DNA of 52,386 nt. Source: a virus. Taxonomy: Duplodnaviria; Caudoviricetes. Position 1 is the stretch's first letter, and every line of letters starts with the position of its first letter. A program made the translations under genes and the position numbers. The notes beneath the pieces are model-generated. The model was not told the DNA's origin. It made no database searches and saw only the letters and a program-made list of their open reading frames with translations. This document shows positions 1,740 through 31,668 of the stretch, in pieces. The DNA is taken from IMG/VR virus record IMGVR_UViG_3300028840_005521, positions 1-52,386 of that record. One strand, written 5' to 3'.

Positions 1740-1935
1740 CTGGTGTTCCTTTCACTAGCTTGCTTGCTTTCTCCCAGTCATGACCAGCTTGGTGATAGTG
1801 CAACCGAAGCTGGCCAAACCAATGCGTGTACCCGAACATCTTTCCCGTAGCCAGCCCCTTAGCTACCTGGATGCCGGCTTCGTCGGTGTGGGCATCGAAG
1901 CAGGACTTGCAAATCCCCTCTGGCCAATCGCTCAT
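1729..1935 (-). CDS. Hypothetical protein (CxxC)
   Basis: MSDWPEGICKSC; ATGA overlap. Confidence 0.55.
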   Translation of the reverse strand: MSDWPEGICKSCFDAHTDEAGIQVAKGLATGKMFGYTHWFGQLRLHYHQAGHDWEKASKLVKGTPDEE

Positions 1936-5246: not shown

Positions 5247-5330
5247 GTTTGTTCCTTTCGCCGAGCGCGGGGTGGGTTGGTAGGGGACACCTCACAGCCC
5301 ATATGTTCTCCCACCCCGCCACTCAACTCT

Positions 5331-5534: not shown

Positions 5535-5627
5535 TCACATCTCCTAACTATGCCAGCTGGGTGCAGGGCAGAACTGTGTTGTTGCCTCCCTGTCTGCCCT
5601 GCACCCCTACTGCCATGCCACGCGGCC

Positions 5628-6429: not shown

Positions 6430-8592
6430 CTACTTCCCGTTGTTTCTTGCGAGACGTTTCCGTTTTCTCTTCTCCGCAGCCCGAACTAACTCTCGAGACT
6501 TCGGATGGTTCCGGGAAATCACCAGCGCTTCCTTCCACCAATTCGGGAAGAGTCGCTTGTGTTCCCTGAACAACTTGTTGAACTGTTGGTCAAGTATGTA
6601 GGTGTCGCACCAGTCAGACCTGCCCCTCATACCTCGGCCCGTCATTTGCGCAATAGCCCGGATGGTTTGCACTGCGTACCATTTCTGCCCGCCTTTGGAA
6701 TACATGCGAGCCTTCACCATCTTGTCGCCGAGATAGGGGTACGGGACTTTGGCGATGATGATCACTTCACACTCTTCGCCCGGCAAGTCGATGCCGCGCT
6801 CAAACGACGGGGCCAGCAGGACAGCGTTCGGTTGCTCGAGGAACCTGGCCAATGCCCGGTCCCTCTCCTGCGCCGACCAGTACGTCATGATGCGGCGGTC
6901 GGCAAGATAGGTATAGAGGTGTCGAGTGAGTTCGTAACTGACAGTGTGGACGAGGATCCGAGCGAACGGGTGGTCGGCGACAATCTCCGCAACCTGGTCG
7001 ACCAGGATCGGGTATGCCTCTTCCTTGGTTTTCTGTGTCACCCGGGTTTTGCCGACACTGAACACGGGACGGTTTTCAACAGGGAACGTGGAATCCATCT
7101 CGACATATGCCCATTCCCCGTGCTCGAGACCCAGATCCTCGGCCATCTGCTCAGCGGAAATCAACGTGGCGGACATGAGTAGGAACTGGTTTCCCCGGTC
7201 CCACAGCACGCTCCGCGCGACCTCCGCTACCCGCACCGGTTTGAACACCACTGTTGCCTCAGCGACGTCTTTGCCTTCGTACCCTGTCATGACCCAGTTG
7301 TCGCCGAGATCCCCGTCGCCGTCTCGAAGCATCTGTTTGATGCGCGCCTTGATCTGGCCCATACGCCGCAGTTCCCGCCGCGCCTTCACCGAAGCGCCAA
7401 ACATCGACGACTGCTTCGACAGCTCGAGACGGTACTTGTCGATCGCCGGGATCACTTCTTGTGTCAGCCACCGTTCCCAATCATCAGCGACAGTGCGTTT
7501 AGGTATCGTGTCGACCTTGAGTTTCTTCCTCAACCTCGGCCCGATCACTGTTTCGACATGGCTCATCAGTTGGTTCTCGAGCGTGTCGGCCTCGTCGATG
7601 ATCACCAGGTCACGACCGAAGAATCTCGAGCCGTCACCCGTGGTTTCGTGCAGGAAATATGCCGTGTTGAGTATCCCGAGAGGTGCGCTGGCTGCCTCGT
7701 TTTTCGCTACCTGATAGGCACAGGTATGCAGCGACGTACACCACGAACACGAGTCCGGGCCTTGACTCCAGCTGCCGTCACAATCCTCAGCGGTCAAGTC
7801 GTTGCGCAACTCTGTCCGGTAATTTGCCCGGCCCTTAATGACCCGGCCGTAAGAAAAGTCCTTCTCGATTTGGTTCTGCAACGACTTGGTGGTGCAGAGG
7901 AAAGGGGTGGGGACAGACCCGGCGTGGAGGCGCCGAATCGATTCGCCGATCAGTGTCTTGCCGGATCCTGTGGGCGCAGACAGGAACACCACTTTGTATC
8001 CGTCCTGGAAGAACTCAACCGTTTCCTTGACTGCCTCCCACTGGCCTTCTCGGTATTCCCTGAATTGGTGAGGCATCGGTATTGAACCGAACATCGGGTG
8101 GGTGAGGGGCGGAGCCTCATCGGGCAAAGAGAACTCCACCCCCTTTGAGTCACCCACCCGTTGCGGCAGAAGTGGAACGACAGGGGCGATAGGGGAACCG
8201 CTGTCGTCTTCTGCCTGATCTGGGGCTGCCGGCTGAATGTCGAGTAGCGTTAGCTCTTGGGGTGGTTCCGGCTCGGGTTCTTCTTGCATCTCCCCGGCGT
8301 ACTCCATCTCCTCGCGCCGACACAGCATGACCGCTACCTTGTGGGAACAGTTGCGCCGGTACTCGCCACCCATCGATGTTTGGCAGGAACAGAAATACTT
8401 GCCATCCTCGAGACCCACAAAGTACTGCGGTCGGGTATCGCTCAGCTTCGTATCACCCGTGATACGCCAGCTGTTCTCGTCCTTCCCTCGGAACACTTCA
8501 CGCTTCCTGGCACGCTTGATCAGCGACGGTCGCACGTTCAGCGGGGGAAGTGAATCCTCGGTTGCCCAATCTTCTCTCAATCTACTCTCCAC
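6430..8592 (-). CDS. DinG/XPD-family SF2 helicase with N-terminal SWIM zinc finger
   Basis: SWIM CSC...CSH; REGQ, APTGSGKT, Fe-S Cys cluster, IIDEAD, MSAT, RGIDLPG, QMTGRGMR. Confidence 0.9.
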   Translation of the reverse strand: MESRLREDWATEDSLPPLNVRPSLIKRARKREVFRGKDENSWRITGDTKLSDTRPQYFVGLEDGKYFCSCQTSMGGEYRRNCSHKVAVMLCRREEMEYAGEMQEEPEPEPPQELTLLDIQPAAPDQAEDDSGSPIAPVVPLLPQRVGDSKGVEFSLPDEAPPLTHPMFGSIPMPHQFREYREGQWEAVKETVEFFQDGYKVVFLSAPTGSGKTLIGESIRRLHAGSVPTPFLCTTKSLQNQIEKDFSYGRVIKGRANYRTELRNDLTAEDCDGSWSQGPDSCSWCTSLHTCAYQVAKNEAASAPLGILNTAYFLHETTGDGSRFFGRDLVIIDEADTLENQLMSHVETVIGPRLRKKLKVDTIPKRTVADDWERWLTQEVIPAIDKYRLELSKQSSMFGASVKARRELRRMGQIKARIKQMLRDGDGDLGDNWVMTGYEGKDVAEATVVFKPVRVAEVARSVLWDRGNQFLLMSATLISAEQMAEDLGLEHGEWAYVEMDSTFPVENRPVFSVGKTRVTQKTKEEAYPILVDQVAEIVADHPFARILVHTVSYELTRHLYTYLADRRIMTYWSAQERDRALARFLEQPNAVLLAPSFERGIDLPGEECEVIIIAKVPYPYLGDKMVKARMYSKGGQKWYAVQTIRAIAQMTGRGMRGRSDWCDTYILDQQFNKLFREHKRLFPNWWKEALVISRNHPKSRELVRAAEKRKRKRLARNNGK

Positions 8593-8609
8593 GTCACTAG
8601 AGGGGTATG

Positions 8610-8618
8610 AGTATAGCA
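8610..8618 (-). promoter_or_regulatory. Extended -10 promoter (TGCTATACT) for the helicase operon
   Basis: TGn-TAnnnT upstream of the helicase start; same class at 9442, 21799, 22779, 22974 and 34311. Confidence 0.5.
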
Positions 8619-8622
8619 GTGG

Positions 8623-11723: not shown

Positions 11724-11871
11724 CCCGTTCCTTTCTCTCAAGCCATTCCAGCATCCACTGTTCCAGCTTCACCAACGGTTCATGCAGCAACAACAACACG
11801 ATCGCCAGCACAACCGACACGCCACCTAGCCACGTCATTGCTTCACCCATCTCGAACGGTTGCGGATTCAT
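11704..11871 (-). CDS. Small single-TM protein (55 aa, not in ORF track)
   Basis: MNPQPFEMGEAMTWLGGVSVVLAIVLLLLHEPL...; ATGA overlap. Confidence 0.6.
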   Translation of the reverse strand: MNPQPFEMGEAMTWLGGVSVVLAIVLLLLHEPLVKLEQWMLEWLERKERDEEKQD

Positions 11872-12666: not shown

Positions 12667-13175
12667 ATCGCCATCCTTTCCTCGTTGTCGGTTGCGAACA
12701 CCGCAACCTGGTGCTTACACATGATGTTCGGATTGGTCTTCGCTGCCATGCATGTGCACACGGAAGCGAGATCCTGGTCGGCAGGCACCGTCACTGTGTA
12801 GATGTCACGCTCGCCAGCGACTCGAAAGATTCTGCCGGGAATCTCACGGACATTAGCCCGGGGAATTTGGGTCCCCCTTAGGGCAGCGCCCGGTTCGATC
12901 TCGGGCATGAATTGGTCCTGGTCGTGAGTAGCGAACCACGATCGCAGACAGGTCTTGCACACGTCGCCGGATAGCTTCACTTCGGATGGGACGGCGACCC
13001 AACGTTCCTGCCACCTTCCAATTCGACGTTCCTGCCACCTTCGAATCGGGTCGGGGAGTAACGTTGGGTCGCCGTGCAAGTACGGTCCGGCCATCCCGCA
13101 CAGCGCCCGCACTCCACCGTCGGTAAACACGTGCGCCTTACCGGTATCGAAAATCCATGCCTGCCAACTAGTCAC
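12663..13175 (-). CDS. Zinc-finger plus SWIM-domain protein (paralogue of 9832-10419)
   Basis: KAH..ALCG..CKTC; YTVTV..CTC..MCKH SWIM. Confidence 0.75.
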   Translation of the reverse strand: MTSWQAWIFDTGKAHVFTDGGVRALCGMAGPYLHGDPTLLPDPIRRWQERRIGRWQERWVAVPSEVKLSGDVCKTCLRSWFATHDQDQFMPEIEPGAALRGTQIPRANVREIPGRIFRVAGERDIYTVTVPADQDLASVCTCMAAKTNPNIMCKHQVAVFATDNEERMAI

Positions 13176-13599
13176 TGTTCACCGGCTTTCTATCTGGCGA
13201 CATTTCAACCGGCTTGATCGACCATGCCCTCTCATCGGCCCGCCGAGCTGCGTCCACGTCGCGCGCCTTCGCAGTCAACTTCCCCCCGGCGTCGGCCAGC
13301 ATCGACGCGTAGGCCTCGGGGATGGTGGGCCGCAGCTGGCTTTCAGCTTTCACCACTGTCCCAGTGTCCCAACGTGTCCCAATGCGGTCCTCTGGCGCCG
13401 CTGGGTAGACATGGAGACTCACCCGGTAGCCAACCGGTATCACAATCTCGACCATGACAAACGCTACGTCACTTTCAACGCCGGTTTCGTAGAATCGCCA
13501 GTCATTGACGTAAACGTGGGCAGTGCGTAGACCCGCGACCCTCACCCCATCGTATCCAGGGATGGTGTCAGTGAATCCCTTGTAGAAATGCAAATCCAT
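13168..13599 (-). CDS. Hypothetical protein
   Basis: GAAAGGAA RBS; 143 aa. Confidence 0.7.
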   Translation of the reverse strand: MDLHFYKGFTDTIPGYDGVRVAGLRTAHVYVNDWRFYETGVESDVAFVMVEIVIPVGYRVSLHVYPAAPEDRIGTRWDTGTVVKAESQLRPTIPEAYASMLADAGGKLTAKARDVDAARRADERAWSIKPVEMSPDRKPVNSD

Positions 13600-13612
13600 A
13601 TTGTTCCTTTCG

Positions 13613-14050
13613 CTAGACGTAATCGACGTCGACTAGTTCGTCCATTGGGAGCGTCACGGGACGAACACAGTTGCGGCATTCCATCTCGCCACCTTCGCCA
13701 CCTTCCATCCCGCAGTAGTGGCCACGCGCCTCATAGCCGTCGTCGACTCTGTGAACCGTGTACTCCCAGATGTTCCACGCGTCACCTTCGTTGACATTGC
13801 CACCAACCAACCCGCACCACGGGCATTCGAATTCGACGCCATTGTCCCCGGGTTCTTCCGGGTTTTCAGGGACGATTAGCAATGGCTTAGGCCCCTTCTC
13901 TGCCCCATCCAACGCTTTGCCTAGTGTCTCCCGCGCCGTCGTAAGTGCGTTCACTACCGATGGCTGGTCAAGTTCATCCAGGTAGGCAAGCGCGTAGTCG
14001 AGTGCGTCCCATGCGGTTGATAGGTGCTTGGCTTCGTGTGCCTCCATCAT
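13613..14050 (-). CDS. Hypothetical protein with C-terminal zinc ribbon
   Basis: CPWC...CRNC; GGAAAGGAA RBS before ATG 14050. Confidence 0.65.
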
Positions 14051-14208
14051 GTTCCTTTCCTGCTGGCCAGCACCACCTTGGCCGCTGCCAGCCTTTGCTT
14101 GTCCTCTTCCGTATTGAGCCAAGGCAACATCTGCAGTGCCTTGACCATGTTGCGTAGGGCATAGGTCGGTTGGTTGCCGACAATGGCTTTAGCGTCCTGG
14201 AGATTCAC
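14047..14208 (-). CDS. Small hypothetical protein (53 aa, not in ORF track)
   Basis: [44 protein letters not shown]...; coupled at both ends. Confidence 0.65.
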
Positions 14209-14594
14209 CGCTTCACCCCCCCGCTAACCGTCCGCAACTCGTCGGCGTCAAACTCGAACCAGCACCACGCCAGATCGCCTATGGGCCAGAGTTTGATCGT
14301 GCGGCCATTCAGATACCGGAATACCGGCCGCATCGTCCACTGGCTACCGTCGTCCGGGTAGGTGACAACGATGTCACCGTTCGGTTGCGCCTCTAGCCGG
14401 TTACTCTCCCCGTCGTTGAACAATGTGCGTTGCTCGGATAGCACCGTTGCCATGCCAACACTGTCGACATAAGGCACCGACCATCCGTTCCAATGTTCGC
14501 CTTTCACAACGTACGCAGGGATTGGTGGTAGCCATTCCTCGTCGAGCATCCGCCAGTCGCCCGTGATCTCGGTTCGTGTCAACTCGCTAAGCAT
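14205..14594 (-). CDS. Hypothetical protein
   Basis: WNGWSVPY...WCW; RBS present. Confidence 0.65.
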
Positions 14595-14784
14595 TGTCGA
14601 CTTCCTTTACTGGGTAGTCGGCCGGAATCGGTTCGCCATCGTGGTAGTACTCGAATGGGCAGCGGCCACTAGGCACGGGCGTCATTTGAGTACTAATGCT
14701 GTCGTCCCATGATCGGCCGCAGTTTCCGCATGTTGCTATGTCGAATCGGTTAGGCCGGGTTTCCCCGGGAATTTGGGTAGCCAT
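14587..14784 (-). CDS. Small Cys/His protein
   Basis: CGNCG...CPFEYYH; GGAAAGGAA RBS. Confidence 0.65.
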   Translation of the reverse strand: MATQIPGETRPNRFDIATCGNCGRSWDDSISTQMTPVPSGRCPFEYYHDGEPIPADYPVKEVDNA

Positions 14785-15002
14785 TAGGTTCCTTTCCTTG
14801 TGGCGTTTGGTCCTTTGCGCCGGGCGTTCACTCGGCGCCCCATGTCGTGTCGGTGGCCTACCAGCCGGGCTAGGCGAACCGTGCCCGGGTCGATCCTTGG
14901 CCCGTTCTTGTGTCGGTTAATCGTGTGGCATGGGTCGACCGATACGGCGTACACATGGCACGCTACGCAGCATCGGTCGGGACGGTGCAACCCATGAATC
15001 AC
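14784..15002 (-). CDS. Small Cys/His-rich basic protein
   Basis: Coupled ORF. Confidence 0.5.
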   Translation of the reverse strand: MIHGLHRPDRCCVACHVYAVSVDPCHTINRHKNGPRIDPGTVRLARLVGHRHDMGRRVNARRKGPNATRKGT

Positions 15003-15923: not shown

Positions 15924-16217
15924 TCAAATCTCTAGTCCCTTGGCGCAACCTTCGCACGCTATTTGGTGCCATCCCTCAAAAGGGCCTGTCCTTTTCATCA
16001 TCGTGCTTGTGTCTATTCCGCAGATCCCAACCTCTGTCCGCTGGGTCTTCGGAACATGCAATACAATATGAACTTGACCGAACGGCTGGCCGGGGGATTG
16101 CTCTCGCCTTAGCTCAATTCGTGTATCGATCATTGCTCTGTTCCTTTCCAGGGCAATCTGTTCCCGCTCGGCCCGGTAATCCCCGGGATATGTGTATGGC
16201 ATTAGCACCGTCCTCAC
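15924..16217 (-). CDS. Hypothetical protein (H..C..CxxC)
   Basis: Coupled ORF. Confidence 0.6.
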   Translation of the reverse strand: MRTVLMPYTYPGDYRAEREQIALERNRAMIDTRIELRREQSPGQPFGQVHIVLHVPKTQRTEVGICGIDTSTMMKRTGPFEGWHQIACEGCAKGLEI

Positions 16218-16483: not shown

Positions 16484-16608
16484 GTGAGCACCCCCTTCAA
16501 CCTCTGTCGCTCGACCCTCCGCCTTGCTCGCTTGCACCCCTTCGCCGCGCGCCGTTCCATCTGCCTCTGCCACCTGGCCAGCTCGCCCCGCTCGCCGCGC
16601 GCCGTCAT
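16480..16608 (-). CDS. Small Arg-rich protein
   Basis: MTARGERGELARWQRQMERR...; coupled at both ends. Confidence 0.5.
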   Translation of the reverse strand: MTARGERGELARWQRQMERRAAKGCKRARRRVERQRLKGVLT

Positions 16609-17081
16609 CGGAGCACCAACGATCGCACCATCGAGTTGAATAGGGTCGGGTCGTCGGTTGTCGCTAGGGTCAACTCGTTGAGAGTTTCCCGGACCCATTG
16701 CAGAATGGCGCCGGGGTTCTCGGCGGTCATCATGCGGCCATCCAGCTCGTGGAGTACTTCCAGCATTGAATTGCGGGCATCCATTTCTTGCGCGTCACGT
16801 AGCTCGGCGGTGAGGTCTTCCAGCTCGTATTGCGCCTCGTCTAGCGCATTGGATGCCCGATTGATCTTTTCCTCTAGGGCGAAGAGGGATCTACCGATTG
16901 TCTTCTGGACGCCTTCTATGATTCCCCGCGACCATTCACTGCAATCGCCTTCGGTCTCACTGTCGGTTATCTGATTGAGGTTGCTAGTTGCGGTCTGCAA
17001 CTCGTCAAACTCTTCACCGACTGCTGTCACTGCCCGATGAAGTCTGTACGCTTCATCTGCAAAGTCTATCTTCCTAGCCAT
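16605..17081 (-). CDS. Acidic coiled-coil early protein
   Basis: Heptad pattern; GGAAAGGAA RBS. Confidence 0.7.
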   Translation of the reverse strand: MARKIDFADEAYRLHRAVTAVGEEFDELQTATSNLNQITDSETEGDCSEWSRGIIEGVQKTIGRSLFALEEKINRASNALDEAQYELEDLTAELRDAQEMDARNSMLEVLHELDGRMMTAENPGAILQWVRETLNELTLATTDDPTLFNSMVRSLVLR

Positions 17082-17139: not shown

Positions 17140-17468
17140 GGGGGTTTTTCTCCGGGATTTTGGGTCCCATTAGGCCCCGGGATTTTGCCTTACCATTTGC
17201 CCCGGGTTTTCGGGTTTCCATTAGGGTTTGGCCGCATGAGCTCTTCCAGGATCTTCCAGAAGGATATGTGTGCCGGCGCATGTGATGACTAGTCACCATA
17301 TGTGTGCCGGCATATATATCCGGTGACGCATATGCACGTCGGTGCATATGGTTTCCTTCTACTTTCCTTGCTCAAGACCCATATACTGGAAAGTTTTTAG
17401 CCGGCGTCTAGCTGGCACCCTATTCGGTTGTCGGTTGTCGGTTCCTTTCCTTTCGATTGCCTACCGTT

Positions 17469-17509
17469 AAAGGTCCCGCGCCACTAGGACGCGGGACCTT
17501 TCACGCTAG
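17469..17509 (-). repeat. Post-stop hairpin element, copy 1
   Basis: AAAGGTCCCGCG-9nt-CGCGGGACCTTT-CACGCTAG abutting the stop at 17510. Confidence 0.8.
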
Positions 17510-17908
17510 TCAATCGAGAAGGTCGGCTACGACATATCTATACTCAGTGCCATATTCGAGCAGCAAAGATGCCGGGTCATCATGATTATCCACGACGAGA
17601 CTCATTATGTGCTCCAGGCTATCGACAGATCTAGCCTCACCGGTTTCGCCCTCCACGATTGTCGCGACTGCTAGCGCTACGATCGCGTATTCCCCACTCG
17701 TTCGACCATAACGCGAACAAGGAACCATTCCACTTTCGTCGGTCAAATAAGCTATCGCTTGCGCGTCGGTCAGAGGTCCCAACGAATCAAGGTAACGCAA
17801 CACCGCCCGGGGATAGTTATGCTGACCATACGGTGAGGAATCCTCGTCATGTCGATATTCCTTGTTACATCGGTCACCATGCCCATTGCGGCTATAGCAT
17901 CTGGTCAT
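17510..17908 (-). CDS. Hypothetical early protein
   Basis: GGAAAGGAA RBS; 132 aa. Confidence 0.7.
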   Translation of the reverse strand: MTRCYSRNGHGDRCNKEYRHDEDSSPYGQHNYPRAVLRYLDSLGPLTDAQAIAYLTDESGMVPCSRYGRTSGEYAIVALAVATIVEGETGEARSVDSLEHIMSLVVDNHDDPASLLLEYGTEYRYVVADLLD

Positions 17909-17940
17909 CTATTCCTTTCCTTTCGTCGACTAAGTATCGG

Positions 17941-17978
17941 GAAAGGTCCCACCAATGGCGCGGGACCTTTCGCGCTAG
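17941..17978 (-). repeat. Post-stop hairpin element, copy 2
   Basis: GAAAGGTCCC-11nt-GGGACCTTTC-GCGCTAG abutting the stop at 17979. Confidence 0.8.
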
Positions 17979-18605
17979 CTAGTCGATAGTGGCGACAGAC
18001 GAACCCGGACGACGCCCGAAGTTATAAGTACTATTAGCCGCCCATCGTGATTTGCTAATTAGGTCCCGATGATATTGGTTCGAAAGGTCGACTAGTTCGA
18101 CCATCCAATATTCATATACCGATTCCGGCTCGGAATACCATTCATAGACCTTATCGACACTTGCTTGATATTTAGTAAACTTTTCACCCTGTTCGTCGAC
18201 TGCTTCGAAGGTATAGCAGTCGACTCCGCGATCCTTGTGATGGATTGTTCTAGTTAAGGTTAGATCGCCACTGGGCGCGATCTTCCAGGCAGAGATGTCA
18301 ACATAAGCTCGATCGTCGTCCAGGGTCCCAACGTCAAGCGCGAACCAGTAAGGCCCATCACCGTAATCGTTGACATATCCGTAGCCGTCGCCACCTCTAA
18401 GTGTTCCGATTCGTTCGGCGGTAGCTTCAGCAGCATATTCCACTGCAGACGGATCATTAGGTCGAAAACCAATTACCCTCGACAAATAGATTTCGCCCAT
18501 TCCTTCGTGATGTGAGATTACAACTAGCGCCATGTCCTTTCCTTTCGTCGGCACTATGACGCCGACCCCTAATCGGTAGGAGTCGGCGCGGATAGTGTCT
18601 ACCAA
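17979..18605 (-). CDS. Hypothetical early protein (likely start near 18533, MALVV)
   Basis: Long ORF; internal GAAAGGAAAGGA RBS before MALVV. Confidence 0.7.
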   Translation of the reverse strand: MVDTIRADSYRLGVGVIVPTKGKDMALVVISHHEGMGEIYLSRVIGFRPNDPSAVEYAAEATAERIGTLRGGDGYGYVNDYGDGPYWFALDVGTLDDDRAYVDISAWKIAPSGDLTLTRTIHHKDRGVDCYTFEAVDEQGEKFTKYQASVDKVYEWYSEPESVYEYWMVELVDLSNQYHRDLISKSRWAANSTYNFGRRPGSSVATID

Positions 18606-19237
18606 AAGAAGTTATGCGCACACTCTTCAAATTCGCAATTATTAGAATCAGGGTCTCCACACAACAATTCAGCACAGATCAAGTTACCTTCGAAGAAGTC
18701 AACAAGCATATTCTCTGGTAGTACCCGCTCGTTCAACCATTCAAGCGATTCTTGAGCGATCTCGTAGACCCATTCTGTTTCCGGCGATTCTTCAATTGTT
18801 TTTCCTAATCGATAATCCTCAAGTGCCTTCCTGTCTGAAGGTCGCAGTCGGTATCCATATGACACTGCGATATCAATTGCGCGATAAGTGTTATGCCAAC
18901 CTAGGGCCGAATCTAGCCAACAACCGACTTCGCCGGTGAAGGATTGCGTTGGGAGGCATTCCCGACCCCAGCGATTGTCCATTTTCAGCACATCGGAAAG
19001 GATTTCTTCGAACACGTCGCCAGATACCCTTATTGTTTTGTCGGCTGATAGGTAGTTGAGGTGTTTTCTGGTCGTTGGTCCCCACTCATTTTCCATTTCG
19101 CGTAATGTCCACCCTTCGCCGGTGACATATACGCCGATTGGAGTCGAATAGCTGAACCCTACCTTCACATCATGCCCGATTCCGACGATTGAGAAGTTGT
19201 CCCGATTCGTTGGATGATCAATGTCGATACTCATCAT
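18599..19237 (-). CDS. Hypothetical early protein
   Basis: FSYSTPIG...WGPTTRKHLN N-domain plus acidic C-domain; GAAAGGAA RBS. Confidence 0.75.
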   Translation of the reverse strand: MMSIDIDHPTNRDNFSIVGIGHDVKVGFSYSTPIGVYVTGEGWTLREMENEWGPTTRKHLNYLSADKTIRVSGDVFEEILSDVLKMDNRWGRECLPTQSFTGEVGCWLDSALGWHNTYRAIDIAVSYGYRLRPSDRKALEDYRLGKTIEESPETEWVYEIAQESLEWLNERVLPENMLVDFFEGNLICAELLCGDPDSNNCEFEECAHNFFW

Positions 19238-19245
19238 GTTCCTTT

Positions 19246-19323
19246 CTATCGCTTGGTTGCGATTCTTGCGACCAGGACGGCCCTAATGATGACTAGCGCT
19301 ACGATGACAATTCCAGTTTCCAC
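19246..19323 (-). CDS. 25-aa hydrophobic peptide, first gene of the leftward operon
   Basis: METGIVIVALVIIRAVLVARIATKR; GGAAAGGAAAGGAA RBS. Confidence 0.5.
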   Translation of the reverse strand: METGIVIVALVIIRAVLVARIATKR

Positions 19324-19369
19324 AATTCCTTTCCTTTCCTTGTGGAGTCTTCCCTTTCTCTATCGGTCC

Positions 19370-19399: not shown

Positions 19400-19619
19400 C
19401 TTAATTCGGGCGATTTCTCGATTGCTAATTTTCACCCTTAACGAGCTCTCCCACGACCCCAACGACCCGGCCCATAGCTTCTGGAGTAATAGGTGAGCAA
19501 TAACTTACCTTTCGGTGTAAGGCTAATGGTCAGGGTGTAGCTGCTATGTCGGGCTCAGTGATCATCGGGTCGACAGGTAGCTAGAGAGTTATTGGTAATA
19601 ATTGGAAAAGACTCAATAG

Positions 19620-19970
19620 GTAAATACTGGGAAGGGTGAGAATTATTCTCAACTACCAATGATTGCCAATCGCTCGGCGACCCAGATATTGCCAATTGAG
19701 AATGGATATCAATTGGTAAATATTTCCAGCCGGCAGAGCTCTGGGAAATACTGGAAAACGACTAGTAAATCCTGGAAATGGCAAATACTGGAAACGAATT
19801 TCCAGTAAATGCCAACCACTCCCAGAAAATGGAAAACCCCGGCGAGGACTAGCCCCAAAACCGGGGCATAGCTCACACAATTTTTGCCCCCAAACTGCTG
19901 AAGGTTTACTTGTTTAGGAGGTAAGAATGGGGGGGTCATAGGGGTCGTTTACTTGTTTGGATAGTAAGCG
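19620..19970. repeat. Non-coding repeat region with AAATACTGGAAA-like motifs and GTTTACTTGTTT twice
   Basis: Motifs near 19622, 19746, 19768, 19783 and inverted near 19799; 12-mer near 19904 and 19947. Confidence 0.7.
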
Positions 19971-20172
19971 GCGGGGTAGTAGAATAGGGGCGACGGCACA
20001 CCTGGGCGGGACGCCCCAACCTGCCAACTAATCACGGCAGGGGCAGCTGATAACTGCGAGCGCCACGACAGGTGAGGATGCCGGGGCCCGCGACCCGACA
20101 ACGGCTGCGGAGGCCACCCCCGGCAACCAAGCCGTCAGGCGACCAAAGGAAGGCGCAAGGAAAGGACAACTA

Positions 20173-20490
20173 ATGGACGAACCCAGGTTCACAATCGAGC
20201 ACACCCACCGAGTCGTCAAACTCGAGTACCGGCTGCGACCCGCCAACAAACGGAAGCGCATCGTGCTGCTCGACCACACCGGCAACTACTACAAGGTCGA
20301 CAAAATCATGGTCCACGTCAGCGGCCAAAAGCAAGCCACCGCCGTGTTCTACGGCTACCGCATCATGCCCGACACCGGAGCTCACCTCGACCCGTCCCCC
20401 ACCCACTTCGTACCCGACGAGAAACTGATCGCCGGGATCAAAGAAGAAATCGAAGGGATCGTGCGGCAACAAATCGAAACACTACTATGA
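20173..20490 (+). CDS. Hypothetical protein
   Basis: AAGGAAAGGA RBS. Confidence 0.72.
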   Translation: MDEPRFTIEHTHRVVKLEYRLRPANKRKRIVLLDHTGNYYKVDKIMVHVSGQKQATAVFYGYRIMPDTGAHLDPSPTHFVPDEKLIAGIKEEIEGIVRQQIETLL

Positions 20491-20702
20491 GCGACAGGAG
20501 CAAGATGGACAGCAACGACGTATTGGCCCAAGTACAGGACAAGCTCGAGGCAAGCGACAAAGCCGGCATCGTCGCGATCACCGACAACGGGACAGTCGTG
20601 CTCAACCTCGAGCCGGTAGTGCTCGCCACCCTCAAGGTGCTGGAAGAGAACAACTACCTAGAGCTGGGGCCAGTCAACGAAGAAGACAATGGCGATGGGT
20701 GA
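20487..20702 (+). CDS. Hypothetical protein
   Basis: ATGA overlap. Confidence 0.62.
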   Translation: MSDRSKMDSNDVLAQVQDKLEASDKAGIVAITDNGTVVLNLEPVVLATLKVLEENNYLELGPVNEEDNGDG

Positions 20703-20790
20703 ACATTGGAAGTCGAACCTGGTAAACACACTGGCGTCCTTAGTGATGCTGGTCTGGGTGCTGGTCGCATTCCTGGAGGTGATTCGGTGA
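20695..20790 (+). CDS. 31-aa single-TM peptide (not in ORF track)
   Basis: MGEHWKSNLVNTLASLVMLVWVLVAFLEVIR. Confidence 0.45.
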   Translation: MGEHWKSNLVNTLASLVMLVWVLVAFLEVIR

Positions 20791-21047
20791 GTGCCGAGAT
20801 GAGTGACGAACAGACACGCATAGTTACGTATAAGACTATGTGGGTACCCGCATCTCCGTTCAAGATCGACGCCGCAAAGTACAAAGATGGAATCTCCGTG
20901 TGGTTGCCGCACCAATGCGACGAATGGGAAATCGTTGGCCGTGCTCCAACCGTCGAGGCCGCAGCGAAAGTGTTGCGAGAGTTTGCCTCCGATCTGTTGA
21001 CGGCTGCCGGTTCGCTGGAGGAACTGATCGGAGGGGTTGATGAGTGA
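20787..21047 (+). CDS. Hypothetical protein
   Basis: GGAGG RBS; GTG 20787 or ATG 20799; contains WLPHQCDEW. Confidence 0.65.
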   Translation: MSAEMSDEQTRIVTYKTMWVPASPFKIDAAKYKDGISVWLPHQCDEWEIVGRAPTVEAAAKVLREFASDLLTAAGSLEELIGGVDE

Positions 21048-21273
21048 CGAACAGACCCGCACCGAACCCCTAATGGAAGCTCTTGAACTGGCCTGGGGGC
21101 TGATAGCCAACGCTAGCAACTGGGATTTAGAGGGACCAGCTATCGGCACCGAATCCCTTCCCAGTTCTCTGTTCGACACCGACGAGATCACATGGGGCCT
21201 AGATGACGAGGACGAGTATCAAATCGTCGCCATGCGTGAGTATGTCGAGCCGTCCGTAGACGACGTGTACTGA
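21040..21273 (+). CDS. Acidic hypothetical protein
   Basis: GGAGG RBS. Confidence 0.6.
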   Translation: MSDEQTRTEPLMEALELAWGLIANASNWDLEGPAIGTESLPSSLFDTDEITWGLDDEDEYQIVAMREYVEPSVDDVY

Positions 21274-21317
21274 CCTTTCAGGAGCACGCATAACCACCGA
21301 TATGTATCGGAGAAATC

Positions 21318-21575
21318 TTGACCATGCAACTGCTCATAGCAAATGAACGATTGACAATGGACAGCCTGATGGCCATCGCCAATGCGCTACCTAAACACGC
21401 CTACCTTGATTTGCACGGTTGTCAGATTGACAACTGGGACGGTAATCGATTGCCTAAAGATGGGCCAACGTTTTTCGTTTCGGGATGCCTTTGTGTCGGA
21501 GCAGAGGAATCGGTGGGCATAAACATAGATACTTCGTACCGACAGAGCAATGGGTTAGCTGAGGATGCGCCGTAA
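21318..21575 (+). CDS. Hypothetical protein
   Basis: GGAG RBS. Confidence 0.55.
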   Translation: MTMQLLIANERLTMDSLMAIANALPKHAYLDLHGCQIDNWDGNRLPKDGPTFFVSGCLCVGAEESVGINIDTSYRQSNGLAEDAP

Positions 21576-21840
21576 ACTTGACGGACGTCATACGATGCGT
21601 TCATGAATGAACTAGCTCAACCATACCGCGACCCAGTTTTCAATCTCGAACTTGGCCAGCGAGTAATCGAAGAACTCATGACCCAAGAGGATTGGGATTT
21701 CCTACTCGACCGGCTTTTCTTATCCGAACTGGAAACACCGGAAATCAAACTCTCTAAGTATTCCTGACACCACGAATTGTGGCGGAAACTTCGCGTTCTG
21801 CTAACCTATTCACCAATGACGATGCGAGTAGGAGTGGTGC

Positions 21841-22716
21841 ATGACGGACTACTACCGGGCCGGGCTTAACAAGCTCGACCTCAAAGAACCGCCGAAGGGC
21901 GGACCTGCGATTCTTCTCTACGACCTCGAGACGGCGCCAGCAAACGCATGGGACTGGAGCGCTTACCGATCGAACGTAGTCGACGTTCAGCAACCCCCCT
22001 ACGTCCTGTGCTTCGCATACAAGTGGCTCAACAAACCAGGCGTCGGTTTCGTAGCCATCAACCACAACCCCGAGTTCGAAGCTGGGGGTTGCGTTCTTTG
22101 CTCCAACAACAACGACGACAGATGGGTCGCTGAACGGCTCGGTGCTCTGTTCGACCGAGCTGACATCACCATCGCCCACAACGGCGACAAGTTCGACAAA
22201 CGCAAAGCCAACTCAATGTTCCTAGCCCACGACCTCACCCCGCCGTCCCCTTACCAAACCATCGACACGCTGAAGGAGTCGAAACGCTACTTCGCCGAGT
22301 TCAAACACAATCTCGACTATGTGACCCGCCACCACGGACTCGGCGGCAAAGAGCCCAACACCGGATTCGAGCTTTGGTACCGCTGCATGGTTGGCGACCC
22401 GAAAGCGTGGCGGGACATGGAGAAGTACAACCGACGTGACGTGATGCAGCTCGAGAAGTGGTATTTGAAGATCCGGCCCTGGATTGGCGAACCCGGGAAG
22501 AAGCATCACCCGAACCTGGCGTTCTGGGGTGAGGACGGGATACTCACCTGCCCCAAGTGCCTCTCGACGAAAGTCTGGAAACGGGGATATCACCGCACCA
22601 CCGTGTCCGAATTCCAAACCGTTCAATGTCAGAACTGTGGCGGTTACTCGAGGGCCAGGGCCAGGGTTTCGCAGCGCCGGCCGAACCCGGACTCCCCACG
22701 GGTCGGAGCTCTGTAA
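21841..22716 (+). CDS. DnaQ/RNase H-like (DEDD) 3'-5' exonuclease with C-terminal zinc ribbon
   Basis: YDLET, AHNGDKFD, IDTL, YNRRDV; CPKC...CQNC. Confidence 0.87.
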   Translation: MTDYYRAGLNKLDLKEPPKGGPAILLYDLETAPANAWDWSAYRSNVVDVQQPPYVLCFAYKWLNKPGVGFVAINHNPEFEAGGCVLCSNNNDDRWVAERLGALFDRADITIAHNGDKFDKRKANSMFLAHDLTPPSPYQTIDTLKESKRYFAEFKHNLDYVTRHHGLGGKEPNTGFELWYRCMVGDPKAWRDMEKYNRRDVMQLEKWYLKIRPWIGEPGKKHHPNLAFWGEDGILTCPKCLSTKVWKRGYHRTTVSEFQTVQCQNCGGYSRARARVSQRRPNPDSPRVGAL

Positions 22717-22793
22717 GGAACTGTCAGCGACTCTCAGGTAGCGTTGAGAAAGGCATCTGCTGCGTTGCTCGCATCAGCTGCTATACTCGCCAC

Positions 22794-22904
22794 CGACACA
22801 GTTGCCCGGCAGATTGGAGTCCCGGGCAAGGCGCCCGGTCATGGTGCCCGACATATGCGAGAAGGCCCCTGTGATTTGTTCCTTTCCTTCAGGGGCCTTC
22901 TCGC
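22794..22904 (+). ncRNA. Candidate small RNA 1 (three hairpins, anti-SD loop)
   Basis: Extended -10 at 22779-87; two small hairpins, then a 15-bp stem (22857-71/22890-904) with loop TGATTTGTTCCTTTCCTT; no credible ORF. Confidence 0.55.
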
Positions 22905-22988
22905 GTCTAGCGTTGGAAAACCGATAACGGTATCGGTAAACCGATAACGATTATCAACACGACCGGAATTATGTGCTAGAGTCCGCGA

Positions 22989-23059
22989 CGAGGCAGGCAT
23001 CCAAGCTCCCTCTCCACGTCAGGCGAACGGCCCCCATCCACCTCTGGGGGCCGTTTGTT
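22989..23059 (+). ncRNA. Candidate small RNA 2
   Basis: Extended -10 at 22974-82; C/T-rich stretch; terminator hairpin 23025-23056 followed by GTT. Confidence 0.48.
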
Positions 23060-23091
23060 GTAGTATGTGGCTCTGGTGTTGGGAGGTTCGA

Positions 23092-23274
23092 ATGATCCAA
23101 AAGTCAGATCCCGTGATTGCGCCCCCGGTTGGGTGGTCCTATCACAAGCCGACATTGAAATATCGCGACGGCCTACCCGTCGGTAACTGCGGGACGCTCG
23201 GTAACTTTATGCCGGAACATATCGCCATCGAACTCGGTCTTGAGCGTTGCAAGCGATGCAACTGGAAAGTTTGA
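23092..23274 (+). CDS. Small H..C..CxxC zinc-binding protein
   Basis: GGGAGG RBS; YH..NCG..CKRC. Confidence 0.6.
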   Translation: MIQKSDPVIAPPVGWSYHKPTLKYRDGLPVGNCGTLGNFMPEHIAIELGLERCKRCNWKV

Positions 23275-23341: not shown

Positions 23342-23491
23342 ATGAGCAAGAAGAGCAAGATGATCACAGTCACGGTCAAGCCAATCCCGGCGAGTCTGTG
23401 GAAGGACATCAAGCTGACAGCGGTCGCCCAGGAACGAACCGTTGCTGATGTCGTAACCGAGGCGCTAGGTAGGTACGTCAAAGACAAGTGA
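23342..23491 (+). CDS. Ribbon-helix-helix protein (49 aa, not in ORF track)
   Basis: MSKKSKMITVTVKPIPASLWKDIKLTAVAQERTVADVVTEALGRYVKDK. Confidence 0.75.
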   Translation: MSKKSKMITVTVKPIPASLWKDIKLTAVAQERTVADVVTEALGRYVKDK

Positions 23492-24601: not shown

Positions 24602-24886
24602 TTGAAAACCTTCGACGGCATTCTCGAGGCATGGGCGAGGCGTTGGGTACTGATCGGCGAATGTGCCGGAAGTGTCTTGCTCCCCGGCGCCGTCGAAGCG
24701 CTACATCAGGAACTTGTTGAGAGCGGATGGTCCCCCCCTGCTCCCCCCCCATCCTTCCCCCTCGGCGGGGGGGGAGCCATCCAGCCGAACACCTCCACCC
24801 CACCCCAGATTCACCCCAACCAGATGACCGTGCAAGACTGCATAGCTGAAGACTATGTGGACCCGCATGTCACGCGACCGCACTGA
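24602..24886 (+). CDS. Hypothetical Pro-rich protein
   Basis: ORF directly after the previous stop. Confidence 0.45.
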   Translation: MKTFDGILEAWARRWVLIGECAGSVLLPGAVEALHQELVESGWSPPAPPPSFPLGGGGAIQPNTSTPPQIHPNQMTVQDCIAEDYVDPHVTRPH

Positions 24887-30282: not shown

Positions 30283-31539
30283 GTGAACGTGAAGACCTAT
30301 CTCACTAAAGCCGCCCTTGATGCGGCTATTGCAAACCCATACGAAACCCTCCATGAACTGTTCGAAGAGGTTCGCCTCGGCAACTACTTCGGCGACGTTC
30401 TCGAGGGGCGCTCTGCCCTGAGCATTTTCGGTGCGGCAGAGGGAGCAGCCCCGGCTGGCTTCCTTGCCCGTGAAGACACTCTCGACACTGTTCCCGGCAA
30501 CCGGGGACTCACTGTTGACGGGCAAAGCGTTAACGACATCTGGACCGAAATGCAGGCCATGCTGTCGGCGTTCAACGCGAGCGCTGATGCCATTGTGGCC
30601 TACTTGACGTTCCCGGTGGTCGCCCACACCGAGCGTGTTGGCGTACCTATCAACCCCGGGTTCCAGAAAGCCACCGAGTTCGGACGCCCGAGCAAGATTC
30701 GGATGCAGCACGTTCTGCGCGGATTCCCAATCGAGCACTTCGACCTCGGCGACGGCTACACCCAGGAATACATCGATCTGGCAACCGGCGCTCAGCTACT
30801 CGCTGTGCAAGCCACTGTCACGACCGCCTGGGCGCAGCTACGGCGCGATATTGTCCTCAAGGCGTTGATGGAGGAATCCAACTACACCGACCAGGACGGT
30901 ATTGCAGTCAAGAGGCTCTACAACGGCGACGGTGAGGTTCCCCCCACCATCAAGCGTTGGACCCATGCCGGCACCCACACCCACTACCTGTACTCGGCAG
31001 GTATCGCGTTCGCTCAGGCCGATCTGGACTCGATGTCCGATCACCTGATCCACCACGGGTTCCGCGAGTTCGGCGATGCAGCTTTCATTCTGCACACGAA
31101 CCGTGACGACCTTCCTGGTGTGCGCGCATTTGCCAACTTCATCCCGGCAGAGACCGGCGAGCGTCCCCAGGAACTCGCCAACTCTGGTGTGGTACGAGGC
31201 CTCCAGCGTGGTGCTGGTGGACTCCAGGTAGAAGGCTGGTGCAACGACTGGACCATCGTTCAGAACAACGACGTCCCCAGCGGCTACCTCGTCGGTACCG
31301 TCTCCGGTGGACCGTTCGACGTTCGGAACGTTGTCGGTTTGCGTGTCCATGAGAACCCAAGCGCCCGCGGCTTGCGTCTCATCGAAGGCAACCGGCAGAA
31401 CTACCCGCTCTACGATTCCGTGTACGACGGATATCTCGGCGCCGGCGTAGGCCAGCGTGGTGCAGCGGTCATCATGTACGAGGACACCGGAACTGGCTCG
31501 GCATACGTCGACCCGACCGGTTTCCAAACTGGTGAGTAG
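30283..31539 (+). CDS. Major capsid protein
   Basis: 418 aa after scaffold/decoration; followed by a terminator. Confidence 0.85.
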   Translation: MNVKTYLTKAALDAAIANPYETLHELFEEVRLGNYFGDVLEGRSALSIFGAAEGAAPAGFLAREDTLDTVPGNRGLTVDGQSVNDIWTEMQAMLSAFNASADAIVAYLTFPVVAHTERVGVPINPGFQKATEFGRPSKIRMQHVLRGFPIEHFDLGDGYTQEYIDLATGAQLLAVQATVTTAWAQLRRDIVLKALMEESNYTDQDGIAVKRLYNGDGEVPPTIKRWTHAGTHTHYLYSAGIAFAQADLDSMSDHLIHHGFREFGDAAFILHTNRDDLPGVRAFANFIPAETGERPQELANSGVVRGLQRGAGGLQVEGWCNDWTIVQNNDVPSGYLVGTVSGGPFDVRNVVGLRVHENPSARGLRLIEGNRQNYPLYDSVYDGYLGAGVGQRGAAVIMYEDTGTGSAYVDPTGFQTGE

Positions 31540-31560: not shown

Positions 31561-31592
31561 GGAGGGGAGAGACCAGTTCTCTCCCCTCCGTT
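31561..31592 (+). terminator. Intrinsic terminator after the capsid gene
   Basis: GGAGGGGAGAGA/TCTCTCCCCTCC hairpin. Confidence 0.75.
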
Positions 31593-31668
31593 ACATCAGG
31601 TCGGTGCCGGGAGGCAGATGGGACGGCATCTCCCCCACCCCTCCCGGCACCCCTGAAAGAGAGATGCA

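What the first reader, a model, noticed from the sequence alone, without database searches (positions are those of the whole stretch)
22779..22904. Candidate phage sRNA whose loop is antisense to the Shine-Dalgarno shared by the early genes
Seen: an extended -10, about 110 nt with no ORF, ending in a perfect 15-bp stem with the 18-nt loop UGAUUUGUUCCUUUCCUU. The early leftward genes use a distinctive GAAAGGAA(C) RBS. The loop matches these over 10-12 contiguous nt at 5248-59, 13601-11, 14050-61, 14788-99, 17086-97, 17441-52, 17912-22, 19237-46 and 19326-36, whereas most structural genes use GGAG/GGAGG types. Established: C/U-rich loops that pair with SD regions repress translation (S. aureus RNAIII). 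Inference: one trans-acting RNA silences a whole early regulon through a common RBS barcode, acting as an early-to-late switch or as immunity in a phage with no recognised repressor.
Basis: partly seen in the sequence, partly recalled or inferred. Interest (0 to 1): 0.82.

Follow-up and report, generated by a model that had tools for sequence, protein, structure and literature searches.

The report
Phage RNA hairpin mirroring early ribosome sites
An uncultured phage carries a strongly folded non-coding stretch whose open hairpin loop is the mirror image of the ribosome-binding tag on about a dozen of its early genes, so it probably makes a small RNA that controls their translation, though no such RNA has yet been seen.

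Summary
Arms 22857-22871 and 22890-22904 form a perfect 15-bp stem around the 18-nt loop TGATTTGTTCCTTTCCTT. The loop contains the two commonest 9-mers of this 52-kb phage genome. All other copies lie in the same genomic orientation, at 13 leftward sites, and 12 of those sit directly before start codons. No rightward gene has GAAAGGAA.

New here: a metagenomic relative is known only through one predicted protein (P0121), which lets seven substitutions be inferred. Two form a compensatory G-C to A-U change in the stem. Two turn + strand wobble pairs into Watson-Crick pairs; those positions are mismatches on the - strand. A 20-nt indel breaks the - strand reading frame. This supports a structured, non-coding + strand RNA.

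Trans-repression of the tagged early genes is the best reading (about 0.5) but is untested. I found no RNA data, could not fetch a relative's DNA, and could not test loop/tag co-variation. Rivals are a terminator or processing hairpin at the early/late boundary, and a - strand relic.

The element matches no Rfam family. The closest known analogues are the P1/P7 c4 and P4 CI RNAs. Earlier AI notes of this scan report the same pattern in other phages.

The parts
22779..22787 (+). Extended -10-like element TGCTATACT (candidate promoter; a start near 22794 is inferred)
   Evidence: The same 11-mer CTGCTATACTC occurs only once more, on the - strand at 8609-8619, in the 30-nt gap before the helicase gene. 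The residues EYSS that overlap it in the relative's ORF are unchanged.
22802..22829 (+). Hairpin a (8 + 3 pairs), containing a U14.G19 wobble on the + strand
   Evidence: The inferred change at 22814 turns the wobble into C-G in the relative.
22830..22848 (+). Hairpin b (6 pairs), containing a G33.U45 wobble on the + strand
   Evidence: The inferred change at 22833 turns the wobble into A-U in the relative.
22857..22904 (+). Main hairpin: perfect 15-bp stem (22857-71 / 22890-904) and 18-nt loop 22872-22889, TGATTTGTTCCTTTCCTT
   Evidence: The pair 22865-22896 changes from G-C to A-U in the relative.
23026..23064 (+). Canonical + strand terminator (11-bp stem, 8-nt loop, then TGTTGTAGT). Possible true 3' end if the main hairpin does not terminate.
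19326..19338 (-). Double tag GGAAAGGAAAGGAA before GTG of a 25-codon hydrophobic ORF, the first leftward ORF
19239..19246 (-). Tag GAAAGGAAC before the ATG of gene 18599-19234
18539..18546 (-). Tag GAAAGGAAAGGAC before the ATG of gene 17979-18533
17912..17924 (-). Double tag before the ATG of gene 17510-17908 (duplex with the loop -21.0 kcal/mol)
17442..17454 (-). Orphan double tag with no nearby start codon
17088..17095 (-). Tag before the ATG of gene 16605-17081 (duplex -21.2 kcal/mol)
16141..16148 (-). Tag 6 nt before the ATG at 16133
14789..14796 (-). Tag before the ATG of gene 14587-14784
14052..14059 (-). Tag before the ATG of gene 13613-14047
13604..13611 (-). Tag before the ATG of gene 13168-13599
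11728..11735 (-). Tag 3 nt before an ATG
5252..5259 (-). Tag before the ATG of gene 4782-5246 (12-nt match to the loop)
1746..1753 (-). Tag 5 nt before an ATG
20157..20166 (+). AAGGAAAGGA before the ATG of the first rightward gene (20173-20490). It has a 10-nt complement to the loop and a duplex of -15.6 kcal/mol.

Best explanation
The 375-nt gap lies between the + strand exonuclease-like gene (21841-22716) and the next + strand gene (ATG at 23092). It encodes a structured, non-coding + strand RNA.

The RNA would start after the extended -10 at 22779, or be cut from the 3' end of the upstream operon. It folds into two small hairpins and one very stable 15-bp hairpin. The 18-nt open loop of that hairpin acts as a seed. 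It base-pairs over 9-12 nt with the tag (A)AGGAAAGGAAC(A), which overlaps the Shine-Dalgarno site of about a dozen promoter-proximal early genes (12 leftward sites, and more weakly the first rightward gene). Pairing would block 30S binding and/or expose the mRNAs to decay, so the whole early set would be turned down together.

Shown: the hairpin, the accessible loop, the specificity of the loop/tag match, and conservation of the + strand helices in one relative. Inferred: transcription, the 3' end, pairing in vivo, the direction of the effect and its timing.
For: (1) The loop holds GTTCCTTTC and TCCTTTCCT, the two commonest 9-mers of the genome at 11 copies each. All 10 other copies of GTTCCTTTC are in the left arm in the same orientation, and 12 of the 13 tag sites directly precede a start codon.

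(2) Loop-to-initiation-region duplexes of <= -16 kcal/mol occur for 8 of 37 leftward and 0 of 48 rightward crude gene calls (Fisher p = 0.0008). At <= -14 kcal/mol the observed count is 18 of 85. For 200 composition-matched shuffled loops the mean is 6.1 and the maximum 17, and none reaches 18.

(3) In an annotation-free scan of the left-arm - strand, 8 of the 10 best sites are start-codon-proximal (7) or the orphan tag at 17442 (1).

(4) No loop of four other long hairpins (5573, 23037, 24751, 31615) matches a start-codon site.

(5) The loop is predicted unpaired and the stem paired in three contexts. The 271-nt stretch 22794-23064 has z = -6.4.

(6) Relative P0121: 7 inferred substitutions in 132 nt. 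Changes at 22865 and 22896 are partners and go from G-C to A-U. Changes at 22833 and 22814 convert the only two + strand wobble pairs to Watson-Crick pairs. The window has 32 of 32 pairs on the + strand and 30 of 32 on the - strand. The chance that 7 random visible substitutions repair both is 0.0011.

(7) A 20-nt indel shifts the - strand ORF between frames, so that ORF is not a conserved protein.

(8) A + strand U-tract terminator follows at 23026-23064, and both neighbouring genes are on the + strand.
Against: - No transcript evidence exists, and no RNA run is listed.
- There is no -35 element, and the promoter scan found nothing at 22779.
- The hairpin has no U tract and an 18-nt loop, so it may not define a 3' end.
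- Keeping all + strand pairs under 7 random visible substitutions has p = 0.08, which is only modest. The relative's DNA was never seen: substitutions are inferred from one predicted protein, and synonymous sites are invisible.
- Loop/tag co-variation could not be tested.
- The tag core can pair with the usual 16S tail, so any C/U-rich loop gets some matches; shuffled loops average 6.1 of 85 at <= -14 kcal/mol.
- The loop copy has the same genomic orientation as every other tag, which a - strand origin also explains.
- Only 8 of 37 crude leftward gene calls carry the tag.
- None of the 80 metagenome loci fetched shows the tag enrichment; these and five earlier loci were screened. None of the 13 nearest shows a comparable hairpin, and 77 loci of 5 kb or more gave no comparable hairpin-loop match.
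Confidence: 0.5

Rival explanations
1. A cis-acting boundary element only. The hairpin would be a U-tract-less terminator, an RNase III-type processing or stabilising site, or part of an antitermination leader. It would separate the rightward early/middle genes from the late genes. Its loop match to the early tag would have no function in trans.
For: - It sits 140 nt after the last replication-type gene and before the packaging and structural genes.
- This phage has other long G+C-rich hairpins without U tracts after genes, for example 31561-31589 and 31603-31651 after the ORF 30283-31539, which I take to be the capsid gene (not searched against any family), and 24740-24777.
- Conservation of + strand helices fits a cis RNA element equally well.
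- A second promoter-like site and a true terminator follow.
Against: - It does not explain why an unusually large 18-nt loop holds the genome's two commonest 9-mers. The chance of one given 9-mer in one loop is 3.8e-5, and 0 of 200 shuffled loops reach the observed target count.
- No loop of four other long hairpins shows such matches.
- Large loops weaken terminators.
Confidence: 0.25
2. A - strand feature. The loop would be a fourteenth copy of the leftward ribosome-site tag, either a relic of a lost leftward gene start or cassette junction, or an RBS-like decoy displayed on a - strand RNA. It would not be an antisense seed.
For: - All 14 tag copies share one genomic orientation.
- An orphan tag without a start codon exists at 17442.
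- A similar hairpin at 5559-5606 (14-bp stem, 20-nt loop) displays GGGAGG on the transcribed - strand.
- Six of 119 unrelated phage stretches with the same 15-mer have it in a weak hairpin. By eye, the L215/L217 hairpin looks like an ordinary RBS-plus-ATG hairpin on the other strand.
Against: - No ATG, GTG or TTG lies within 10 nt after the tag. The next ATG is 27 nt away, behind the stem.
- Both flanking genes are on the + strand, the terminator is on the + strand, and no - strand promoter was found.
- The window has two A.C/C.A mismatches on the - strand where the + strand has wobbles.
- The - strand frame is broken between relatives.
- A relic sitting exactly in the loop of a perfect, covarying 15-bp stem is unlikely.
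Confidence: 0.1
3. A DNA-level palindrome, such as a protein-binding site or cruciform connected with replication or packaging.
For: - A perfect 15-bp inverted repeat with a compensatory change keeps the palindrome.
- Operator-like repeats lie right beside it at 22918-22954.
Against: - Wobble-type changes in the neighbouring helices make sense only for RNA.
- An 18-nt asymmetric spacer that matches the RBS tag is not expected for a dimer-binding site.
- The adjacent repeat is partly deleted in the relative.
Confidence: 0.05
4. The region encodes a small protein: + ORF 22744-22947 or 22802-22927, or - ORF 22839-23000.
For: - Open frames of 41-67 aa exist.
- The - ORF has a GGAGAGGGAG-type site 5 nt before its ATG.
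- A gene caller called a 68-aa ORF in the relative.
Against: - Codon scores are -0.06 to -0.15, against 0.23 +/- 0.13 for true frames.
- No Pfam or PHROG match even at E <= 1.
- The only homologue in 5.8 billion proteins is P0121, and it switches frame after 24 residues.
- The + ORF found only two spurious matches to proteins of 1123 and 992 aa.
Confidence: 0.05

Closest known systems
c4 antisense RNA of phages P1 and P7 (immI region)
   Same: It is a phage-encoded small structured RNA. Complementary sequences presented in its loops pair around a ribosome-binding site of the phage's own mRNA and block translation. This is from passages of section 7 of PMC12197685, read.
   Different: By my recollection, c4 acts on one downstream target (icd/ant) in the same transcript and serves lysogenic immunity. 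Here the candidate seed matches about 13 dispersed sites on the opposite arm, and there is no evidence of lysogeny. There is no Rfam match at gathering score, nor at E <= 10 on 22650-23150.
CI RNA of satellite phage P4 (recalled; no paper read)
   Same: RNA-based control of early phage expression through short complementary boxes.
   Different: By recollection, P4 CI causes premature transcription termination on its own leader rather than occluding an RBS. No sequence or structure match was found.
6C sRNA of Actinobacteria and C-rich-loop sRNAs of Gram-positives such as S. aureus RNAIII
   Same: Chaperone-independent binding of many mRNAs through pyrimidine-rich hairpin loops that pair with purine-rich ribosome sites. 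For PMC6486639 I saw only the title and the start of the abstract. RNAIII is recalled.
   Different: Those are host RNAs with C-rich loops. This is a phage RNA with a U/C loop matched to an extended private tag. No Rfam hit was found.
Lambda PR'-tR' 6S leader with Q antitermination, and HK022 put RNA (recalled; no paper read)
   Same: A short structured transcript made just upstream of the late genes and ended by a terminator.
   Different: Those act in cis on RNA polymerase and need no complementarity to other mRNAs. No Q-like gene or put-like motif was identified or tested here.

Membership tests
C4 antisense RNA family (Rfam) | Match to the family covariance model | tested here: not met
   No family reached its gathering score in the whole window. 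At E <= 10 on 22650-23150, only six generic hairpin (miRNA-precursor) matches appeared, at 13-18 bits against gathering scores of 69-197.
C4 antisense RNA family (Rfam) | Loop sequences complementary to the ribosome-binding region of a phage mRNA | tested here: met
   Exact complements of 9-12 nt to 13 tag sites. The loop is predicted unpaired.
C4 antisense RNA family (Rfam) | Target lies downstream in the same operon; RNA is processed from that transcript (recalled feature) | tested here: not met
   All but one of the matching sites are on the opposite strand, 3.5-21 kb away.
6C sRNA (Rfam) | Match to the covariance model; two hairpins with C-rich loops | tested here: not met
   No hit. The loop has 5 C among 18 nt and no C run.
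Canonical intrinsic (rho-independent) terminator | G+C-rich stem, loop of 3-8 nt, and a U tract directly after the stem | tested here: not met
   The stem is 73% G+C, but the loop is 18 nt and the tail is GTCTAGCGTT. The scan did not report it. The hairpin at 23026-23055 with tail TGTTGTAGT looks like one by eye, though the scan did not list it.
Trans-acting base-pairing sRNA (general class) | An independent or processed stable transcript of the stated strand | not testable with these tools
   No RNA run was listed. There is only indirect support from + strand-specific wobble pairs.
Trans-acting base-pairing sRNA (general class) | Seed and target sites co-vary among relatives | not testable with these tools
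   The only close relative is known from one predicted 68-aa protein. More distant relatives lack the element.
Protein-coding gene | Reading frame and protein conserved in relatives | tested here: not met
   P0121 follows window frame A for 24 residues, then frame B. No family match was found.

The most novel reading that the evidence does not exclude
One RNA of about 110 nt (or about 270 nt) made at the early/late boundary acts as a master translational off-switch of a lytic-type phage. Its loop recognises a private extension of the Shine-Dalgarno site (GAAAGGAAC) carried only by the promoter-proximal early genes of both arms. At least 12 unrelated early genes would then be silenced together, while late genes, which avoid the tag completely, escape. 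A second unpaired stretch further along the same transcript (23010-23021) may likewise cover the helicase start region.
Probability: 0.4. Interest if true: 0.8.

Novelty: new variant of a known kind. Interest (0 to 1): 0.6.

Why it matters
Temporal shut-off of early genes in phages is usually ascribed to proteins, such as repressors, RNA polymerase modifiers, nucleases, or translational repressors like T4 RegA (recalled). A single phage RNA that reads a shared tag on the ribosome sites of a whole early gene class would be an RNA-only regulon switch.

The known phage antisense RNAs I am aware of (c4, sar, OOP, P4 CI) each act on one or two nearby targets. My literature searches did not surface a description of such a multi-target system. 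One search found 4 papers and listed 3. One search found 89 and listed 12. One search found 20 and listed 15. I saw only titles and abstract starts, apart from passages of PMC12197685. I could not see subscription journals or supplementary files.

Earlier AI notes of this scan report the same pattern in several unrelated uncultured phages. This window adds another lineage, from sediment and seawater metagenomes, and a small piece of structural covariation. It does not add the decisive loop/tag co-variation.

Tried and rejected
Relatives
- Phage GenBank collection by blastn: no match.
- IMG/VR by the exonuclease protein (best 37%), terminase (best 41%) and the 366-aa protein (none).
- IMG/VR by exact stretches of the hairpin: none.
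- IMG/VR by the 15-nt loop core: 119 unrelated stretches. Six had the motif in a weak hairpin of 6-8 bp. By eye, the L215/L217 hairpin is an ordinary RBS-plus-ATG on the other strand.
- Metagenome contigs with an 11-sequence exonuclease alignment: 80 loci kept of 546, best 54%. None has >= 2 GAAAGGAAC. Of the 13 nearest loci, none has a comparable downstream hairpin. Of 77 loci >= 5 kb, none has a hairpin loop repeated at RBS-like sites.
- GTDB genomes: best 44%, on a contig binned with a Planctomycetota MAG. This is too distant to name a host.

Expression and reads
- No RNA holder was listed.
- Read laying on four DNA runs: two runs hold a relative that is mostly 90-99% alike, as short contigs. 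The output does not show cover over the hairpin, so I drew nothing from it.

Second candidate RNA (22974-23062)
- Its 12-mer match to the helicase start region is real.
- However, 1.2 such 12-mers are expected by chance between the gap and the genome. A long-segment duplex ranking did not list the helicase start region among its ten best of the 85 gene starts plus two alternative helicase starts.
- I do not count it as support.

H1-H2 loop-loop pairing
- The duplex is -12.3 kcal/mol, reached by 32 of 1000 shuffles. I treat it as marginal and do not use it.

Protein searches
- The + ORF against 1.84 billion representatives gave two spurious hits to long proteins.

Full report
CONTEXT

The window is a complete 52,386-bp virus record with direct terminal repeats. 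Genes from about 19,340 down to 1 lie on the - strand, and genes from 20,173 onward lie on the + strand.

The finding lies in a 375-nt gap. On one side is a + strand DNA-polymerase-exonuclease-like gene at 21841-22716 (phrog_403, E = 2e-76). On the other is a + strand 60-codon ORF whose likely ATG is at 23092. Further on are an Arc-like ribbon-helix-helix ORF at 23342-23488 (phrog_6506, E = 1.6e-4), the small terminase (25130) and the large terminase (25773). The element therefore sits at the boundary between rightward early/replication genes and late genes.

THE OBSERVATION

- The arms 22857-22871 and 22890-22904 are perfectly complementary over 15 nt, with 18 nt between them. This is the longest perfect hairpin in the genome among 19 with stem >= 9.
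- Folded as RNA, 22779-22910 has z = -4.0 on the + strand and -3.9 on the - strand.
- In three transcript contexts the stem is paired with probability > 0.99 and 14 of 18 loop bases are unpaired with probability > 0.9.
- TGCTATACT at 22779-22787 is an extended -10-like element. There is no -35, and the consensus scan found nothing there.
- The 11-mer CTGCTATACTC occurs only once more. That copy is on the - strand in the 30-nt gap before the helicase gene (6430-8592; phrog_2488) and is correctly oriented for it. An 11-mer match by itself is expected by chance: 4.7 such matches are expected between the gap and the genome. Only its position and orientation make it suggestive.

THE LOOP AND THE TAG

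- GTTCCTTTC occurs 11 times, all in one orientation, against 0.46 expected. TTCCTTTC occurs 17 times, all in one orientation.
- On the - strand these read GAAAGGAA(C). They form 13 sites between 1746 and 19338, and 12 of them lie 0-6 nt before an ATG or GTG. The site at 17442 has no start codon nearby.
- GAAAGGAA never occurs on the + strand.
- GTTCCTTTC and TCCTTTCCT are the two commonest 9-mers of the whole genome, and the loop holds both.
Four more exist.
- With 85 crude gene calls of my own (greedy ORFs; start chosen by a generic anti-SD score), the tag is present at 8 of 37 leftward and 0 of 48 rightward starts (Fisher p = 0.0008).
- Loop/initiation-region duplexes of <= -16 kcal/mol occur at 8 of 37 leftward versus 0 of 48 rightward starts. 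At <= -14 kcal/mol the counts are 14 of 37 versus 4 of 48.
- Two hundred shuffled loops of the same composition give on average 6.1 targets at <= -14 kcal/mol, with a maximum of 17, against 18 observed. Composition explains part of the signal. The order of the bases explains the rest.
- An annotation-free scan of the left-arm - strand puts start-codon or tag sites at 8 of the 10 best places.
- The first rightward gene (20173) carries AAGGAAAGGA, a 10-nt complement to the loop. The tag therefore marks the promoter-proximal genes on both sides of the central control region, rather than simply 'leftward' genes.
- PHROG searches on 10 leftward genes from the tagged region found no assigned function: 8 had no match and 2 matched families of unknown function. 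That fits early genes but proves nothing.

WHICH STRAND, AND IS IT CODING?

ORFs of 26-67 aa cross the hairpin on both strands. Their codon scores are -0.06 to -0.15, compared with 0.23 +/- 0.13 for true frames and -0.30 +/- 0.22 for wrong frames. They match no Pfam or PHROG family even at E <= 1.

Searching 5.8 billion proteins with the 53-aa - strand ORF returned one protein, P0121, of 68 aa from a 1328-bp metagenome contig. A search with P0121 itself found nothing else. P0121 equals window - strand frame A for 24 residues (22 identical) and then continues in frame B to the stop. The simplest explanation is a 20-nt deletion in the relative at about 22907-22926, which removes one copy of the repeat AAACCGATAAC. 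A frame that is not kept between close relatives is not a conserved protein.

Because the ORF runs across the hairpin, its seven amino-acid differences fix seven base changes in 132 nt.

| + strand position | Inferred change | Effect on the predicted + strand structure |
|---|---|---|
| 22865 and 22896 | G-C pair to A-U | Base-pairing partners in the 15-bp stem: a compensatory change |
| 22833 | G.U to A-U | Wobble to Watson-Crick in hairpin b |
| 22814 | U.G to C-G | Wobble to Watson-Crick in hairpin a |
| 22889 | T to C | Last loop base |
| 22836 | C to G or T | Loop of hairpin b |
| 22800 | A to G | Linker |

The window has 32 of 32 predicted pairs on the + strand but 30 of 32 on the - strand. 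The relative has 32 of 32 on both. In simulation, 7 random visible substitutions keep all + strand pairs in 8% of trials, and repair both - strand mismatches in 0.11%.

I read this as real, though thin, evidence for a structured RNA read from the + strand. The caveats: the relative's DNA was never seen, synonymous sites are invisible, and this is a single sequence. The + strand reading also agrees with the U-tract terminator at 23026-23064, which works only on the + strand, and with the orientation of both neighbouring genes.

WHAT IT DOES

Three points favour it.

- The loop is unusually large for a terminator.
- It matches the consensus of the tags, including the AAC(A) extension. As far as I recall, that extension cannot pair with the conserved 16S tail.
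- Late genes avoid the tag completely.

Several steps remain inferences: transcription from 22779, the 3' end, pairing in vivo, repression rather than another outcome, and timing. On the 3' end, the hairpin lacks a U tract. This phage does have other U-tract-less hairpins after genes, but the transcript may equally run to 23062 and be about 270 nt long (z = -6.4). 'Immunity' has no support: I found no integrase or repressor, but I did not annotate every gene.

RIVALS

- A purely cis-acting boundary hairpin (terminator, processing site or antitermination leader) explains the position, the strand and the helix conservation. It does not explain the loop.
- A - strand relic or decoy explains the shared orientation of all 14 tag copies. 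It is echoed by the orphan tag at 17442 and by the similar hairpin at 5559-5606, whose transcribed - strand loop shows GGGAGG. It conflicts with the lack of a start codon, the + strand context, the two - strand mismatches and the broken frame.
- A DNA palindrome and a small protein are the least likely readings.

COMPARISON WITH KNOWN SYSTEMS

No Rfam family matches, either at gathering score or at E <= 10 on the gap. The element is therefore not a member of the C4 or 6C families.

It would work like c4 of P1/P7, where loop-presented sequences pair around a ribosome-binding site (PMC12197685, passages read). It also resembles the C-rich-loop sRNAs such as 6C (PMC6486639, title and abstract start only). 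It differs in acting on many dispersed targets through a shared tag.

My three literature searches surfaced no description of such a phage system. I saw only listings, apart from the passages named above.

Earlier AI notes of this scan describe the same pattern in other uncultured phages, some with reported loop/tag co-variation. I did not check those notes and do not count them as evidence here.

VERDICT

A structured non-coding + strand RNA is likely (about 0.8). Trans-repression of the tagged early genes is the best but unproven mechanism (about 0.5). Novelty: a new variant of a known kind. Interest: 0.6.

Noticed in passing
window 22974-23064: A second promoter-like element (TGCTAGAGT) is followed about 50 nt later by a canonical + strand terminator (11-bp stem, loop TCCACCTC, then TGTTGTAGT). 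Its stretch CTCTCCACGTCA (23010-21) is identical to + strand 8585-96 at the helicase start. About 1.2 such 12-mers are expected by chance, and a duplex ranking did not single out the helicase.
   Followed up: partly
window 22918-22954: Operator-like repeats: AAACCGATAACG occurs twice, the inverted repeat ACCGATA-N4-TATCGGT is present, and so is GATAA-CGA-TTATC just upstream of the second promoter-like site. The relative behind P0121 appears to lack 20 nt here (one repeat copy) and to have changed the second half-site.
   Followed up: partly
window 23342-23488: A 49-codon ORF with a weak Arc-like ribbon-helix-helix match (phrog_6506, E = 1.6e-4; Pfam RHH_5 below cut-off). It is a candidate regulator for the nearby repeats.
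   Followed up: partly
window 5559-5606: A second long perfect hairpin (14-bp stem, 20-nt loop) lies between two leftward genes. On the transcribed - strand its loop shows GGGAGGCAACAA, which resembles the tag. It could pair with the 22872-22889 loop at -12.3 kcal/mol, a value reached by 32 of 1000 shuffles.
   Followed up: partly
window 17469-17501 and 17941-17971: Two related - strand hairpins (GAAAGGTCCC...GGGACCTTTC) lie after stop codons and 15-25 nt before double tags. Their 3' arm CCTTTC(C) could alternatively pair with the downstream tag, forming a possible cis anti-RBS switch. The first is followed by the orphan tag and (CCGACAA)2.
   Followed up: no
window 8609-8619 (- strand): CTGCTATACTC, identical to the candidate promoter at 22778-22788, sits in the 30-nt gap before the helicase gene. 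The two may form a shared promoter class.
   Followed up: partly
window 19300-19338 (- strand): The first leftward ORF after the control region is a 25-codon hydrophobic peptide with a GTG start, preceded by a double tag.
   Followed up: no
window 19600-19850: The divergent control region between the two arms is packed with repeats of TTCCAGTATTT and TTGGCAAT in both orientations. It also holds several sigma-70-like promoters on both strands.
   Followed up: no
window 31561-31651 and 24740-24777: Long G+C-rich hairpins without U tracts lie after ORF 30283-31539 (which I take to be the capsid gene, not tested) and after the 366-aa gene. Several have pyrimidine-rich + strand loops, for example ATCCTTCCCCCTCGGC. 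The loop of 31603-31651 shares 15 nt with + strand 2872-2886.
   Followed up: no
window 20173-22716 versus relatives: The exonuclease-like protein has 574 relatives in metagenomes (best 78%, then 60%). The nearest in IMG/VR is 37% identical, and the nearest in GTDB genomes is 44%, on a contig binned with a Planctomycetota MAG. The phage lineage is poorly sampled and its host is unknown.
   Followed up: partly
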